The notes: generated by a model from the sequence alone, not told the origin. Shown: positions 12,641-52,221, counted from the first letter of the stretch. The stretch is 64,000 nucleotides of DNA from Octopus vulgaris (GCA_951406725.2 OX597829.1:35402001-35466000); one strand, 5' to 3'. Translations and numbers: made by a program.

Positions 12641-12873
12641 ATATATATATATATATATATATATATATATATATATATATATATATATACAAAATGAGAA
12701 AATGGAGAAATATATCTAAATCAATCATCAACTATCAGATAATACCGAATCATATACTTTATTAAAACACTACACAATAGCAATGAGATTAGACATTAAT
12801 ACAGTACAATAATTACAATCAATATGGTGAGATATAACTAAATAAAATATAACAAGATATAAAAATACATTTA

Positions 12874-12999
12874 CATTATAACTGACTGCTGTTTCGGCCA
12901 TGAAGATAGGTATGTCTCATTTAACCTATTAGCCATATAATGCAGGTATAAATGAGACATTAACAAGACTATCTTACGGCCTCTTCGGAGATTCTAATG
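12874..12999 (-). ncRNA. Type I hammerhead-like motif with a very long stem II (U4C core variant)
   Basis: Minus strand: ct-CCGAAGA-ggcc...ggcc-GAAAC-agca-GTC-ag. Stem II pairs: ggccgt/atggcc, aagatag/ctatctt, atgtctcattta/taaatgagacat, acct/aggt. Confidence 0.65.
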
Positions 13000-13461
13000 C
13001 AAGTATGAGTACAAACCCTAAAATAATTTACATATAAATATAAATATGAGTGCATACATACTCATATTCTTACATATATATACATATACACAATAATACA
13101 ATATAAACAATATAAATCAATATACATCAACAAACACAATAATGTTCCATATTGAACGCCACAGCTCCTCAACCAACATCGAGAAACCACAACAGACACA
13201 CTCACACTCAGTGCAGGCATATATATTAAACAGTTCAATATATTAAAATGTGTCACTTCACAAAAAGCCAATAAAGTTAATACCACCACCATAGTACCAT
13301 CCAAGGCAAGTGGATATCTGCATTAGCAGTATATTGGATATATGTTATCCCATGGAGGGTTGAATTTACAACCCCTATCTCTATATATATATATATATAT
13401 ATATATATATATATATATATATATATATATATATATATATATATATATATATATATATATA

Positions 13462-13685
13462 TGCGTGTGTGCGTTTGTGTGTCTGTTTGTCCCCTAGCAT
13501 TGCTTGACCGATGCTGGTGTGTTTATGTCCCCGTTACTTAGCGGTTCGGCAAACGAGGCCGATAGAATAAGTACTGGGCTTACAAAAGAATAAGTCCCTT
13601 ACAAAAGAATAAGTTGCTCGATTAAAGGCGGTGCTCCAGCATGGCCGCAGTCAGATGACTGAAACAAGTAAAAGAGTAAAAGAGT
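13462..13685 (+). mobile_element. SINE family A, 3' half
   Basis: Matches 7240-7430. Confidence 0.9.
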
Positions 13686-13821
13686 ATATATATATATATA
13701 TATATATATATATATCAAGACATTTGAAATTTTATCCCTAATGTAATCGGTAAAACTAAGCACGTGTCTGTCTTGGCACAGAAAGCTGGGGTTAGTTTTT
13801 CAGATTGCATTTACACTGAAC

Positions 13822-13900
13822 GAATGCACTGATGAAGCCACGGACATTTGAATTATGTAAGTAATTCTTTTGTTAAAGGCCGAAACCGAGGTATGCATTT
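13822..13900 (+). ncRNA. Type I hammerhead ribozyme motif, canonical core
   Basis: gaatgca-CTGATGA-a gcc...gaatta tgtaag taattc...ggc c-GAAAC-cgag-GTA-tgcattt. Stem I aatgca/tgcatt; cleavage triplet GUA. Confidence 0.85.
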
Positions 13901-14236
13901 AATTCTGTTTTTTATATAAATTTTCATCTGTCCTGCCCGCCAAATTTGGTTCTGGTGTTCGCTGAATTTTCCCTCTAGAGAATTTCCTTTGTAGTTTGAT
14001 CGTTGATGATCTATTTCTAGCATACGGCCGACTACCTAGCAGTCTTGCCCTGCCAATATACGCATATATTAGAATTTTCTCTGACTTCTCAGATTTTTTG
14101 TATGCTGGACTAGTGGTTTTAAATTGATATTAAAATTAATATTAATTTATATCCCTCATTATTTAAATATATATATATATATATATATATATATATATAT
14201 ATATATATATATATGTATTATACGTACATACATACA

Positions 14237-14688
14237 TATATATGTATTTTATTTGTTCCAGTCTTTTAAATGCGGCAATGCTCGAGCACCGCCTTTAGTC
14301 AAACAAATCAACCCCATGACTTATTTTTTGCGAGCCTATTACTTATTCTATCGGTCTGTTTTGCCTAACCGTTAGATTACGGGGACGTAGACACGCCACC
14401 ATCGGTTGTCAAGCGATGTTGGGGAACAAACGCAGACACATAAAATACATACATACATACATACATATATATATATATATATATATATATATATATATAT
14501 ATATATATATATATATATATATATATACGACGTACTTCTTTCAGTTTCCGTCTACCAAATCCACTCACAATGCTTTGGTCGGCCCGAGGCTATAGTAGAG
14601 GACACTTGCCGGGAGTGCTACTCAGTGGGAATGAACCCGGAACCATGTAGCTGGTAAGCAAGCTACATACTACACAGCCACTTCTGCA
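14237..14688 (-). mobile_element. SINE family A, full length, diverged
   Basis: Reverse-complement similarity to 6985-7445, with internal (TA)n. Confidence 0.9.
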
Positions 14689-48570: not shown

Positions 48571-50965
48571 TATATATATATATATATATATATATATATA
48601 TATATATATATATATATATATATATATATATATATATATATATATATATATATATATATATATATATATACATATACACACACACATACATACATGCATA
48701 CACACACACTCACATACACACAGGCAGATGCATCCATACACACACATACGCACACACACACACACATGCACACACACATATACACACACACACGAAAGCT
48801 GAAAATTTTTGTCATTATTGTCATTTGTTAGCTAATATCTCTATCTCCTTTCCTTTTACTCTGTATTCGATGCGTCTCTCCCCTTCTACATGTATACATG
48901 AATACATAGCCACATATATACACATGTATGTAAATATATATATATATATGTGCAAGTGTACCTCTGTGTGCGTGTATATATATAAAGATACACGCACACA
49001 CACACATGCACACATATCTATGTAAGACTGTGTTTGTATGCCTATTTATATAAATATGTGTGAATTTGTGCGTTGGATTCAACGCAGACACATGCATATA
49101 TATTTTTACATTCACACACACATACAACACACACACACAGACACACACACGCACAAGCCTACCCCCCCCCCCCAACACACACACGCACACACGCATACAC
49201 AGACATATGTACATCCACTGCGTGTGAGTGCGTATGTGTGTGCATGTGTGTTTTCATGTATCATATTATATGCAAACAATTGTACCCAAATAACGTAAAT
49301 GCATGCATATACATACGAGTGATCGTCTAATATGCATTGTGTTCGAAATTAAGAAAAATCGAAAGAAAAGAAATTGACGAAATCTTCAGAGAAAGAGCCA
49401 CAAGATTGTCTTAGATTAATTTAGATGAGTGCGAGAGGAGTGATTAACTCTCCTGGGGAATTATGTGTATTCTTTTCGGAGCCAAGAATATAATGTCATC
49501 AAGGCGAAAGCTTTTGAGACACAAGAAAGGTGTTCTTTAGCCGCGAGACAGCTACTCTTGTCTTCTGATGAGGAGAGGAATTTTTATGTTAAGAATAATG
49601 GCTTCAGAATGGTGGAAGCACGTCTAATAAACATGGTGGCAGTACTTGTTAAATGTGTGCATACTTGCTTGTGTGTATATATATATATATATATATATAT
49701 ATATATATATGTATATTTATATGTATATATATATATATATATATATATATATATGTATATTATATATATATATATATATATATATATATATATATATATG
49801 TATATTTATATGTATATGTATATATATATATATATATATATATATATATATATATATATATATATGTGCGTGTGTGTATGTATATATGTATATATATATA
49901 TATATATATATATATATATATATATATATGTATGTATGTGCGTGTGTATGCATGTATGTGAATGTATGTTTGTGTGAATGAATACGAATGACGGAGAGAG
50001 AGAGAGAGAGAGAGAGAGAGAGAGAGAGAGAGATATGATGAGATAGATAAGCATGAATTAAAAGAGAGGAAATAAAAAGAGAAAGAGTGAAAAAAGAAAG
50101 AAACTGAAGAAAGAGAGGAAAATAGAGCCAGTGAAAGAGCGTGTGGTAGAAAACCAAATAGGAAATTAAGAATTATATTAAATTTTCTCATAGAAAGTTG
50201 GAACCAATGTACCTACCTTTGAAAGGTGTTTCAAGTATGTTGTTTCATCCTTCTCTATTTTTCTGAATCATTACGTCTCTCTTATTGTTCACCTCCCCTC
50301 TCTGTCATTCTCTATATATGTGTGTATATATATATATATATATATATATATATATATATATGTGTATATATACATATATATGTGTGTGTGTATATATACA
50401 TATATTTATATATATATATATATACATACATACATATGTATGTATATATATATATATATATATTCTCTCTCTCTCTCTCTCTCTCTCTCTCTCTATATAT
50501 ATATATATATATATATATATATATATATACCTATATTCCCACACACATCATATATATATATAAAGTGCGCGCTAGACAGGAGATAAGAATTACAACTCTT
50601 TTGTCTCCCTGGCACTCACTTTTCTGTCTATCAATTTGTCAATCAATACATCAGCTTATCTGCATATCTACATACATTTCTATTTTCTCAGGGTGCAAAC
50701 TTATATATATGTGCATAGATACATACATTCATTTAGGCATACATATGTGTGTACAGACACACACATAAAACAAAGGTGATTAAAGATGTATATTAAATAC
50801 CATACAACATAAAATTCTTGATTTATAGAACTTATCTCCGATTCCAGAGAAGGTGAAACAATCGCCTGGTGGCATTTGAAAACAACTCGAAAAAGAAGGG
50901 GATATAAATCAACAATCATGAATTCTGTAAAAGAAAATACAACCTGATTCTCTGGAGACAAAGGG

Positions 50966-51012
50966 ACTGCTTTGATACGTATTTCTATCTCAATAGACAT
51001 CATCAGGACAGT
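50966..51012 (-). ncRNA. Minimal hammerhead-like motif with canonical core and damaged stem I
   Basis: Minus strand: actgtc-CTGATGA-tgtct attg agata-GAAA-tacgta-TC-aaagcagt. Palindromic stem III ATACGTAT; triplet AUC. Confidence 0.6.
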
Positions 51013-51337
51013 AGTTGTTTTAATTTGTCTAGAGCAAACATGATACTTAGATATGTACAAAAAACAGTAGCATACATTTTTTGATTTACAAAATTTGCTC
51101 TATGCGCGCGCGTTAGTGTATATGTCTGTATGTAAGCTCTACCCTAATATTATACTGTCCTACTATTGAGTCCTTTATATTTTCATACATATGCATATCT
51201 ATCAATCTATCTATCTATCTATCTATCTATCTATCTATCTATCTATCTATCTATCTATCTATCTATCTATCTATCTATCTATCTATCTATCTATCTATCA
51301 CCGCCTATATATTATATATATATATATATATATATAT

Positions 51338-51568
51338 TGCTTTTCCTTCCGGTCTTTCAAAATGTGACCTCGTGTGTACCGTTGGCGATTTTTTTCCTCT
51401 GTCTTCCCTTCTCTGGATCTTTCCTTTCACTATGCTTCCGACGAAGAGCTCCGCTCGAAACGTTACACCCTCCTTCTTTCCTTCTTTCCTGAGCGTCCAA
51501 TTATACTATATTTGTTCCACGTCCTCGCATTGTTGTGTTTTTTTTGTGCTTTCTTGTTTGGATTAACT
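51338..51568 (+). mobile_element. ~230 bp cassette between (TA)n tracts carrying a degenerate minimal hammerhead at 51434-51468
   Basis: CCGACGA-a gagc tcc gctc-GAAA-CG-TT, with palindrome AACGTT. The terminus ...ttggattaac|(TA)n recurs inverted at 41127 and 53421. Confidence 0.7.
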
Positions 51569-51717
51569 ATATATATATATATATATATATGTTCATATGC
51601 ACAATGTATTTATGGATATGCACATAGCTGCAAAACAATGTGGCAAAAATAGTACTTGAATACCAAACGCAAAGTAAAATATTATCTTATCGAAGTAGAT
51701 AAAAACGGTCGTAAGAC

Positions 51718-51759
51718 GACTGTCTGACGAGCGGTTACGCGAAACTTTGAACAACAGTT
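51718..51759 (+). ncRNA. Hammerhead-like motif with canonical core but mutated cleavage triplet
   Basis: gactgt-CTGACGA-gcg gtta cgc-GAAAC-tttga-ACA-acagtt. Stem I actgt/acagt is in the exact expected register. Confidence 0.65.
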
Positions 51760-52221
51760 TGTGATAATTGTTTTTGTTTTTGTTTTTAAGTTGGAGTTTA
51801 AAATAGATTGTAGTAAATGTTTGTAATAAATAAACAGAAAGAATTAAAGTTTTGTCTGAAGTAGTTTTCGTTTGAAGTTCAAATAGGTATCATGATGTGG
51901 TCTGTTCATTTGAAAGAGTGTGTTTCTGTATGAGTTAGATAGTGGTTTACGTGGTTCCAAATAGCAGTTCTTTTCTGGGGAGAATGGAGGATAAAAGTGC
52001 TCAAACTCATGTACCAATAAAATCACAGGCAATGCTTACAGTTTCAGGAAGATCCATAGAGGCATTCATATATGTAAGCTCACACACACACACAAATATT
52101 TTTACATACATAAGTACGTACATACAAATGTACATACGTAGGTACGTACGTACGTACATATATACATACATACACACATACATAAACATAAATAAATATT
52201 CTTTCATTCTTTTTCTTTTAT

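What the first reader, a model, noticed from the sequence alone, without database searches (positions are those of the whole stretch)
12690..51760. A dispersed family of hammerhead-ribozyme cassettes associated with microsatellites (about 11 motifs, both strands)
Seen: type I HHR architecture (stem I - YYGAN(G/U)A - stem II - GAA(A) - short stem III - NUH - stem I) occurs at 12874(-), 13822(+), 15399(-), 25173(+), 35908(+), 40596(-), 40854(+), 47707(+), 50966(-), 51434(+) and 51718(+). Stem sequences differ between cassettes yet pair in register in most copies. Most motifs sit in 100-700 bp non-coding segments bordered by (TA)n or other simple repeats. Established: PLE terminal repeats and retrozymes carry type I HHRs, including minimal forms with palindromic stem III that cleave as dimers. 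Inference: these are many distinct non-autonomous, microsatellite-targeting ribozyme retroelements, probably mobilised by PLE proteins (a GIY-YIG relic is at 24670-25025). This density and stem diversity may be undescribed for this lineage.
Basis: partly seen in the sequence, partly recalled or inferred. Interest (0 to 1): 0.88.

Follow-up and report, generated by a model that had tools for sequence, protein, structure and literature searches.

The report
Penelope-element hammerheads and retrozyme insertions
The predicted self-cutting RNA motifs are real at family level and belong to a known kind of jumping gene: some mark broken-off tail ends of protein-coding Penelope-like elements, others short non-coding repeats that likely borrow the same enzymes, and most of these insertions end in TA repeats.

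Summary
The 11 motifs are 10 insertions from 10 dispersed repeat families; 40596 and 40854 are two arms of one insertion. Every family shows a type I hammerhead core in other genomic copies. Only 4 of the 11 window motifs pass my descriptor (shuffles: 0.07), and at least 4 are broken at the catalytic core or cleavage site. They are not all non-autonomous. Three are tail ends of Hydra-clade Penelope-like elements (PLEs) or of a relative (12874, 47707, 25173), and one follows a Neptune-type ORF (51434). Four are ORF-less tandem units, i.e. retrozymes (13822, 15399, 40596/40854, 50966). In four families 105 of 122 3' ends abut (TA)n (background 1.2%), and 37 of 37 two-armed insertions carry one short and one long end, the PLE 'tail' signature. 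The genome holds near-identical intact Hydra-type ORFs, a likely enzyme source. Cleavage, expression and circles are untested. PLE hammerheads, animal retrozymes, (TA)n targeting and an octopus Hydra element are all published. This scan noted the same system earlier on other DNA of this genome. Verdict: new members of a known kind.

The parts
12690..13323 (-). Arm 1 of a two-armed, 5'-truncated insertion of a Hydra-type PLE (family 2); hammerhead at about 12868-12995, predicted cut between 12884 and 12883; short 3' end at (TA)n
   Evidence: 96% identical to the 3' UTR/pLTR of locus L233; 7 of 8 fetched loci run from the endonuclease C-terminus through about 2.3 kb of UTR into this hammerhead
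13324..13381 (+). Arm 2 (inverted) of the same insertion, carrying the long 3' end, followed by (TA)n
13716..14166 (+). 0.8 copy of an ORF-less 546-nt tandem unit (retrozyme type); hammerhead core at 13829, predicted cut after 13893; long 3' end at (TA)n
   Evidence: 40 best genomic matches 95-100% identical, 1747 first-look candidates; head-to-tail units and 5' inversions
15272..15577 (-). Partial copy of an ORF-less 351-nt tandem unit; core at 15434, predicted cut after 15404; distant homologue of the 40854 family
   Evidence: alignment score 95 against 33 in shuffles, z 11
24720..24932 (-). Broken relic of a PLE GIY-YIG endonuclease region (Hydra-like); not part of the 25173 cassette
   Evidence: 41-51% identity to 6 other genomic relics, one of which sits behind an RT fragment; no Pfam hit; weak profile match, E 0.1
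25172..25262 (+). Solo pLTR fragment related to the pLTR of the active Hydra-type PLE (family 1); core at 25185 with two changes; short 3' end at (TA)n
   Evidence: local alignment score 78 against 30.7 +/- 4.6 in 300 shuffles; fold z -5.6; alignment
35850..36034 (+). Copy of a minimal-hammerhead family; this copy lacks the cleavage site and the 3' strand of helix I; follows trinucleotide repeats, not (TA)n
   Evidence: 6 other copies in fetched loci; flanks
40424..40653 (-). Inverted arm of a two-armed insertion of an ORF-less 357-nt tandem unit; core at 40634; short 3' end at (TA)n
40653..41114 (+). Direct arm (1.3 units) of the same insertion; core at 40860, predicted cut after 40892; long 3' end at (TA)n
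   Evidence: 1993 first-look candidates, tandem arrays of 3 or more units in L027
41114..41232 (-). 3' fragment of the 51434 family sharing the same (TA)n; a second fragment lies at 53421-53491 (-)
47651..47799 (+). pLTR fragment of a decayed Hydra-type PLE (family 3); G8 changed in this copy; short 3' end
   Evidence: 642 candidates, 80-88% identity; endonuclease C-terminus about 180-320 bp upstream on the same strand in 5 of 14 loci
50781..51070 (-). Old copy of an ORF-less unit of about 330 nt; core intact, helix I disrupted
   Evidence: 69-88% identity to relatives; tandem units in L200 and L207; alignment
51340..51567 (+). 3' end of a family with a minimal hammerhead (4-nt palindromic helix III, extra A after A9), linked to a Neptune-type PLE ORF; ends at (TA)n
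   Evidence: 2691 candidates, 94-97% identity; Neptune-type ORF upstream at 2 of the 4 loci extended
51592..51781 (.). Old two-armed insertion of a short hammerhead family; hammerhead on + at about 51718-51765 with U16.1 lost; no ORF link found

Best explanation
These motifs are type I hammerhead sequences carried at the 3' ends of ten repeat families, four tied to protein-coding Penelope-like elements and four ORF-less tandem units, which were likely all pasted into the genome, mostly into (TA)n, by PLE reverse transcriptase/GIY-YIG proteins. Mechanism: the PLE protein likely nicks both strands of a (TA)n tract and primes cDNA from each (inferred from PMC11167929, where the anole PLE cuts and extends both strands). 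Copying likely starts at two fixed sites inside the RNA, 45-170 nt apart and both downstream of the hammerhead. Shown: two fixed 3' ends per family, and one of each in every two-armed insertion. Copying stops early, so most copies are 5'-truncated and many have an inverted second arm (shown). The ORF-less units are predicted to be copied from multimeric transcripts or from hammerhead-cut, religated circles, because copies read through the cut site and reach almost three units (read-through shown; template form not shown). The short palindromic helix III is predicted to cleave only as a dimer (known for this class, untested here). The most likely enzyme source for the young families is the near-identical intact Hydra-type element in this genome (inferred; no sequence link to the ORF-less units was found).
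For: High-copy young families at 94-100% identity. Descriptor: 148 hits in 179 loci against 0 in shuffles. 105 of 122 short or long 3' ends in four families are followed by (TA)4+, against 457 of 37,011 random positions. 37 of 37 two-armed insertions have one short and one long end; 21 of 21 outside the 40854 family, whose query had this shape; two of those 21 share flanks. Intact 717-aa frames, 99.3-99.8% identical among 4 copies, carry RWK, DKT, YKDD, CxCx5C, CxxC and CxH, the Hydra diagnostics of PMC8557442 section 11. Their pLTR has a hammerhead and the same two-end pattern. Direct ORF-to-hammerhead links exist for 12874 (7 of 8 loci), 47707 (5 of 14) and 51434 (2 of 4 extended). The (TA)n at 12638-13462 lies inside another repeat that is uninterrupted at 7105-7300, so the target existed before the insertion. 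Families 15399 and 40854 are homologous with different but still paired helices and equally placed ends.
Against: No cleavage, expression or circle was shown. 5' breakpoints do not gather at the predicted cut: 1 of 88 within 5 nt, about 2.4 expected by my arithmetic. Several young families are fixed for non-canonical core positions: U3 with G8 and U-U at the base of helix II in 40854; C4 in three families; A-C or C-A at the base of helix II in 13822 and 15399, so they may cut poorly. Covariation inside the one family tested does not exceed the shuffles (55 and 58 of 500). No ORF-less unit resembles the pLTR of any ORF-bearing family tested (z at most 2.4). The Hydra ORF has no Pfam or PDB sequence hit, so its clade rests on motifs. 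35908 and 50966 lack (TA)n ends.
Confidence: 0.85

Rival explanations
1. All ten families are just 5'-truncated ends of autonomous PLEs, and the tandem units arose by repeated insertion into their own ends or local duplication, with no self-sustaining retrozyme.
For: True for 12874, 47707 and probably 25173 and 51434. The anole PLE nicks its own pLTR (PMC11167929). Flanks were mostly limited to 1.5 kb, so a distant ORF could be missed.
Against: In 13822, 40854 and 15399 the unit's 5' side joins directly to its own tail at the same point in many dispersed loci, at 88-99% identity, with longest stop-free frames of 109, 88 and 52 aa. No Hydra- or Neptune-type hit was seen collinear with them.
Confidence: 0.1
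2. The hammerheads are passengers: the elements move by PLE enzymes, but the ribozymes no longer cut, or cutting plays no part in insertion.
For: No pile-up of 5' ends at the cut; fixed non-canonical core positions. In the anole PLE, hammerhead mutants insert normally in vitro and no RNA reads end at the cut (PMC11167929). 8 of 9 Xenopus retrozyme dimers did not cleave (10.64898/2026.07.22.740005). This rival is compatible with the best explanation on insertion and differs only on the ribozyme's role.
Against: Core and helices are kept across unrelated families and across the deep 15399/40854 split, which implies selection on the fold. Mussel and coral retrozymes cleave and form circles (PMC7229834).
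Confidence: 0.3
3. Chance matches of a loose motif in AT-rich, microsatellite-rich DNA.
For: With a loose descriptor the window gives 2 hits against 1.9 in shuffles; 4 of 10 folded motifs are no more stable than shuffles (z above -1); Rfam finds none.
Against: Genomic copies restore the missing positions; 148 against 0; physical links to PLE ORFs.
Confidence: 0.02

Closest known systems
Minimal and small-palindrome type I hammerheads in pLTRs of metazoan PLEs (Cervera and de la Pena 2014, PMC4209133; parts 1-2 of 4 read)
   Same: [quoted passage not shown]
   Different: That paper reports a highly conserved G10.1-C11.1 pair; three young families here have a mismatch at the base of helix II. 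No cephalopod appears in the parts read.
Hydra-clade PLEs, including Hydra-1_Obim from Octopus bimaculoides (Craig et al. 2021, PMC8557442; section 11, passages, supplementary table rows)
   Same: RWK, DKT, CxCx5C linker, CxxC and CxH; C-terminal endonuclease; canonical hammerhead; (TA)n insertion; inverted 5' copies with a tail at one end only.
   Different: Their octopus entry is a 2507-bp consensus with 'no pLTR'. Here one family has many near-identical intact copies with pLTRs, and a second has a 2.3-kb 3' UTR and a longer ORF. I did not compare sequences with Hydra-1_Obim.
Animal non-LTR retrozymes (Cervera and de la Pena 2020, PMC7229834, passages; Li, Clavereau and Pollet 2026, 10.64898/2026.07.22.740005, parts 1-3 of 5)
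   Same: ORF-less units of 330-550 nt with one type I hammerhead each, GC 36-46%, monomers to short multimers, co-occurring with PLEs.
   Different: Here mostly dispersed 1-3-unit insertions with fixed double ends, 5' inversions and (TA)n targets. No sequence link to an autonomous pLTR was found for them. Circles and cleavage are not shown.
Poseidon PLE of Anolis carolinensis (Frangieh et al. 2024, PMC11167929; parts 1-2 of 4 read)
   Same: Two internal RT start sites giving the 'tail'; both strands cut and extended; AT-rich targets; hammerhead upstream of the start sites.
   Different: Different clade; its two sites are 30-40 nt apart, here 45-170 nt; a strict one-short-one-long pairing per insertion is not counted in the parts read.

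Membership tests
Type I hammerhead ribozyme | Conserved core boxes and NUH in type I order, with helices I, II and III | tested here: met
   Met at family level; met by 4 of 11 window motifs under the descriptor
Type I hammerhead ribozyme | Covariation in helices | tested here: inconclusive
   80% of cells paired against 33-52% for slid controls, but double changes not above shuffles in 7 sequences; helices differ yet pair between homologous families 15399 and 40854
Type I hammerhead ribozyme | Self-cleavage 3' of NUH | not testable with these tools
   No assay; no raw RNA reads available
Hydra-clade PLE (active family 1; relative of 25173) | Single ORF with RWK, DKT, CxCx5C linker, CxxC and CxH, C-terminal endonuclease | tested here: met
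   Motifs at residues 46, 123, 566, 669, 700; YKDD at 355; in 60 homologues RWK 47, DK[TS] 60, linker 60. Family 2 shows RW[KR], DK[TS] and YxDD
Hydra-clade PLE (active family 1; relative of 25173) | pLTR with hammerhead, partial tandem or inverted structure, (TA)n insertion | tested here: met
Hydra-clade PLE (active family 1; relative of 25173) | RT phylogeny within the Hydra clade; RT and GIY-YIG folds | not tested
   No reference PLE proteins in hand; no Pfam or PDB hit; one homologue has a sub-threshold GIY-YIG hit, E 0.006; the structure job did not finish
Neptune-type PLE (51434 family) | DKG motif, RT, Cx2-5CxxC linker and GIY-YIG upstream of the pLTR | tested here: inconclusive
   Motifs read in the frameshifted ORF of L214; RVT_1 only E 0.17; link seen at 2 of 4 extended loci, one across a repeat-broken 1.9-kb spacer
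Animal non-LTR retrozyme (13822, 15399, 40854, 50966) | ORF-less tandem unit of a few hundred nt with one type I hammerhead per unit | tested here: met
   Units of 546, 351 and 355-357 nt; about 330 nt for 50966
Animal non-LTR retrozyme (13822, 15399, 40854, 50966) | Expression as unit-length linear and circular RNA | not testable with these tools
   Only contigs of runs not on record as RNA
Animal non-LTR retrozyme (13822, 15399, 40854, 50966) | Sequence kinship with the pLTR of an autonomous PLE | tested here: inconclusive
   None found against 4 ORF-linked families (z at most 2.4); other PLE families of the genome were not sampled

The most novel reading that the evidence does not exclude
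The ORF-less units are copied from hammerhead-cut RNA circles by an asymmetric dimer of a currently active Hydra-clade PLE protein. One subunit primes each strand of the cut (TA)n at a different fixed site on the same circle, so every two-armed insertion has one short and one long end, and arms tend to stop after one turn or where they meet the partner's start. This would tie retrozyme circles to a defined enzyme and give a ready in vitro system for the untested Hydra clade. Support: 37 of 37 short-plus-long pairs. In the 351-nt family, 9 arms are 336-373 nt (one turn) and 6 short-ended arms stop at the long-end site. Against: the search query favours such lengths, the 357-nt family shows no such pile-up and has arms up to 982 nt, and no RNA evidence exists.
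Probability: 0.3. Interest if true: 0.62.

Novelty: new member of a known kind. Interest (0 to 1): 0.34.

Why it matters
The class is known, so the window itself is ordinary for this genome. Its value is as a resource. One genome holds an apparently still-active Hydra-clade PLE with intact, almost identical ORFs, several young ORF-less hammerhead units, and many insertions with a strict two-end rule. That makes two open questions testable: which enzyme moves animal retrozymes, and what the PLE hammerhead is for. It also suggests that part of the small 'unknown' or SINE-labelled repeats in octopus annotations are PLE-dependent ribozyme elements. A 2026 repeat annotation of an octopus lists 190 Penelope-like families (6.83% of the genome) and does not use the words ribozyme or hammerhead in its main text, nor ribozyme or retrozyme in the one supplement held (PMC13282606).

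Tried and rejected
Rfam scans: no hammerhead in the 150 listed rows of 277 for the window (127 rows unseen), none at gathering score in 10 loci. First descriptor: too strict on the base of helix II and on loop III, so 0 hits; its relaxed form was at chance level. The repeat finder was swamped by microsatellites. The search with 24410-25260 returned a different abundant repeat at 24412-24668 and gave no link between the endonuclease relic and the 25173 motif; those loci served as a control set. RNA: no RNA holder listed. On four contig runs the 357-nt unit 'goes back 357' in the three runs guessed to be RNA and equally in the large unlabelled run, so this says nothing about circles. 5' ends at the cut site: not seen. 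Within-family covariation: not above shuffles. Pfam and PDB sequence searches of the Hydra ORF were blank. The structure prediction did not finish, so no fold evidence is given. My first label 'Neptune' for the endonuclease relatives was dropped when the intact ORF showed the Hydra motifs. A 2017 RNA Biology paper on small PLE hammerheads that cleave as dimers is recalled only; it was not held. Supplements of the bioRxiv retrozyme preprint were not seen; its main text lists only vertebrates, three insects and one coral. First-look candidate numbers are not copy numbers; no genome-wide count was made.

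
Full report
Setting. The window is G000:C16:35402001-35466000 in a 2.8-Gb genome of 227 contigs. It is repeat-rich: 154 tandem-repeat rows, 69 (TA)4+ runs covering 3%, and LINE and transposase relics. I take the host to be an octopus. 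That rests on my recall of its short repeats and on earlier notes of this scan; no call of mine tested it.

Observation. All 11 places hold a hammerhead-like motif. A strict descriptor found none and a loose one found chance numbers (2 against 1.9). Allowing a palindromic helix III and a mismatch or extra base at the foot of helix II gave 4 hits scoring 20 or more against 0.15 in shuffles. A second version gave 4 against 0.07 in the window, and 148 against 0 in 179 genomic loci. So the signal is real, but most window copies are decayed.

Genomic relatives restore the missing positions. The imperfect helix III at 12874 is a perfect palindrome in the other copies shown (output cut before the last rows). 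47707 has G8 in most relatives. 51718 has U16.1 in most relatives. 35908 relatives keep the 18 nt that the window copy lost. 40596 and 40854 are the two arms of one insertion. Rfam did not report these motifs.

Families. Searches of the genome gave 1747 (13822), 1993 (40854), 2379 (12874), 2274 (15399), 2691 (51434), 642 (47707), 440 (50966) and 266 (51718) first-look candidates, of which 40 were scored each time. These are not copy numbers. 25173 and 35908 were not searched on their own; their relatives came from loci fetched for other queries. Among nine window families (25173 left out) plus the active PLE, only 15399 and 40854 are detectably related (1 of 45 pairs, z 11). Their helices differ in sequence and still pair, and their ends lie at the same distances from the cut (174/228 and about 175/222).

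Link to protein-coding PLEs. The relic at 24720-24932 has no Pfam hit but matched 6 other relics. One of these, used as a query, gave 15,471 candidates; of the 150 scored, most were near-identical copies without stops. Four fetched copies have a 717-aa open frame, 99.3-99.8% identical in DNA, with RWK, DKT, YKDD, CxCx5C, CxxC and CxH. These are the Hydra-clade marks in PMC8557442, whose table already lists an octopus Hydra element inserting in (TA)n. 1037 proteins match at E 1e-20 or better, the best at 51%, none of the 120 listed with a name. Pfam and PDB sequence searches were blank and the fold job did not finish, so the clade rests on motifs.

This element's pLTR carries a hammerhead, and the 25173 cassette aligns to it (78 against 30.7 +/- 4.6). 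The 12874 cassette is the end of a second Hydra-type element: 7 of 8 loci run from the endonuclease through about 2.3 kb of UTR into it (these loci were picked by the endonuclease/UTR junction). The 47707 cassette follows a Hydra-type endonuclease in 5 of 14 loci. The 51434 cassette follows a Neptune-type ORF in 2 of the 4 loci extended; that link is weaker. The relic in the window is on the other strand from 25173 and is a separate insertion.

ORF-less units. 13822, 40854 and 15399 form head-to-tail units of 546, 355-357 and 351 nt, with longest stop-free frames of 109, 88 and 52 aa; 50966 forms old units of about 330 nt. They fit the definition of animal non-LTR retrozymes (PMC7229834; 10.64898/2026.07.22.740005). 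None resembles the pLTR of the four ORF-linked families tested, so the driver is inferred, not shown. For 35908 and 51718 neither an ORF nor a tandem unit was established; both occur as two-armed insertions.

Insertion signature. Four families were counted (13822, 40854, 12874 and the active PLE). Each has two fixed 3' ends downstream of the hammerhead. 105 of 122 such ends are followed by (TA)4+ (the 12874 long-end reference itself ends in TA), against 1.2% of random positions. All 37 two-armed insertions have one short and one long end, 21 of 21 without the family whose query had that shape; two of those share flanks. 15399 and 47707 also show two ends, less often at clean (TA)n; 51434 showed one. 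The (TA)n that took the 12874 insertion lies inside another repeat seen uninterrupted at 7105-7300, so the target came first. PMC8557442 describes the inverted 5' copy and a tail at one end only. PMC11167929 shows two internal RT start sites and cutting and extension of both strands. Priming from both strands at two different start sites explains the pattern; this step is inferred.

Role of the ribozyme. Not shown. Copies read through the cut site, and 5' breakpoints do not gather there (1 of 88), so the template was an uncut multimer or a religated circle. In the 351-nt family 9 arms are about one unit long and 6 short-ended arms stop at the long-end site, as a circle primed twice would give. 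The query favours such lengths, and the 357-nt family shows no such peak. Several young families carry fixed non-canonical core positions, and covariation in the one family tested was not above shuffles. Public runs gave no usable RNA evidence.

Known and new. Dispersed single minimal hammerheads from truncated PLEs, opposite-strand pairs and many families per genome are in PMC4209133. Retrozymes as non-autonomous PLE derivatives are in the 2026 preprint. Hydra elements and (TA)n targets are in PMC8557442. Searches for 'hammerhead ribozyme + octopus', 'octopus + Penelope + Neptune + transposable' and 'cephalopod + ribozyme + Penelope' found no study of these families, and an octopus repeat annotation does not mention ribozymes; the library lacks most subscription papers. 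This scan reported the same system from other windows of this genome. Verdict: new members of a known kind, interest 0.34.

Noticed in passing
G000, loci L178-L183 (outside the window): A very young Hydra-type PLE with intact 717-aa frames, 99.3-99.8% identical among four copies; the endonuclease query gave 15,471 first-look candidates. No Pfam or PDB sequence hit.
   Followed up: partly
L233-L240: A second Hydra-type PLE with a 2.3-kb AT-rich 3' UTR and long Asn-rich inserts between RT and endonuclease; L233 also holds a third, different Hydra-type ORF just upstream.
   Followed up: partly
flanks of L002-L213: The descriptor picked up further, unrelated hammerheads by chance in flanking DNA, so the genome holds more families than the ten seen here.
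   Followed up: no
window 41114-41232 and 53421-53491: Two more 3' fragments of the 51434 family; the first shares its (TA)n with the long end of the 40854 insertion. Different families often share one (TA)n (also L007, L049, L054, L057, L078, L217).
   Followed up: yes
window 15638-16159, 34159-34644, 62109-62483, 4375-4764: Relics that look by recall like restriction-enzyme-like endonuclease and zinc-knuckle regions of R4/Dong-type non-LTR retrotransposons, often followed by (AAT)n; the Pfam hits were sub-threshold or absent.
   Followed up: no
window 25455-26771 and 28780-30205: Broken LINE reverse transcriptase frames (RVT_1, E about 2e-17).
   Followed up: no
window 44024-44494 and 37041-37487: Tc1/mariner-type transposase relics (DDE_3 E 3.5e-5; Transposase_1 E 0.005).
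   Followed up: no
window 12490-12637 with 13462-13684; 7105-7300; 14250-14690: A very abundant composite short repeat with an internal (TA)n(TG)n tract and a short tail before a second (TA)n; it supplies landing sites for the hammerhead elements.
   Followed up: partly
window 9238-9425: Degenerate array of 19- and 38-nt period built on TTAGGG-like units, far from a contig end.
   Followed up: no
L027 3371-3442: The Rfam mir-9 hit is the inversion junction of a short two-armed Hydra insertion, a false positive.
   Followed up: partly
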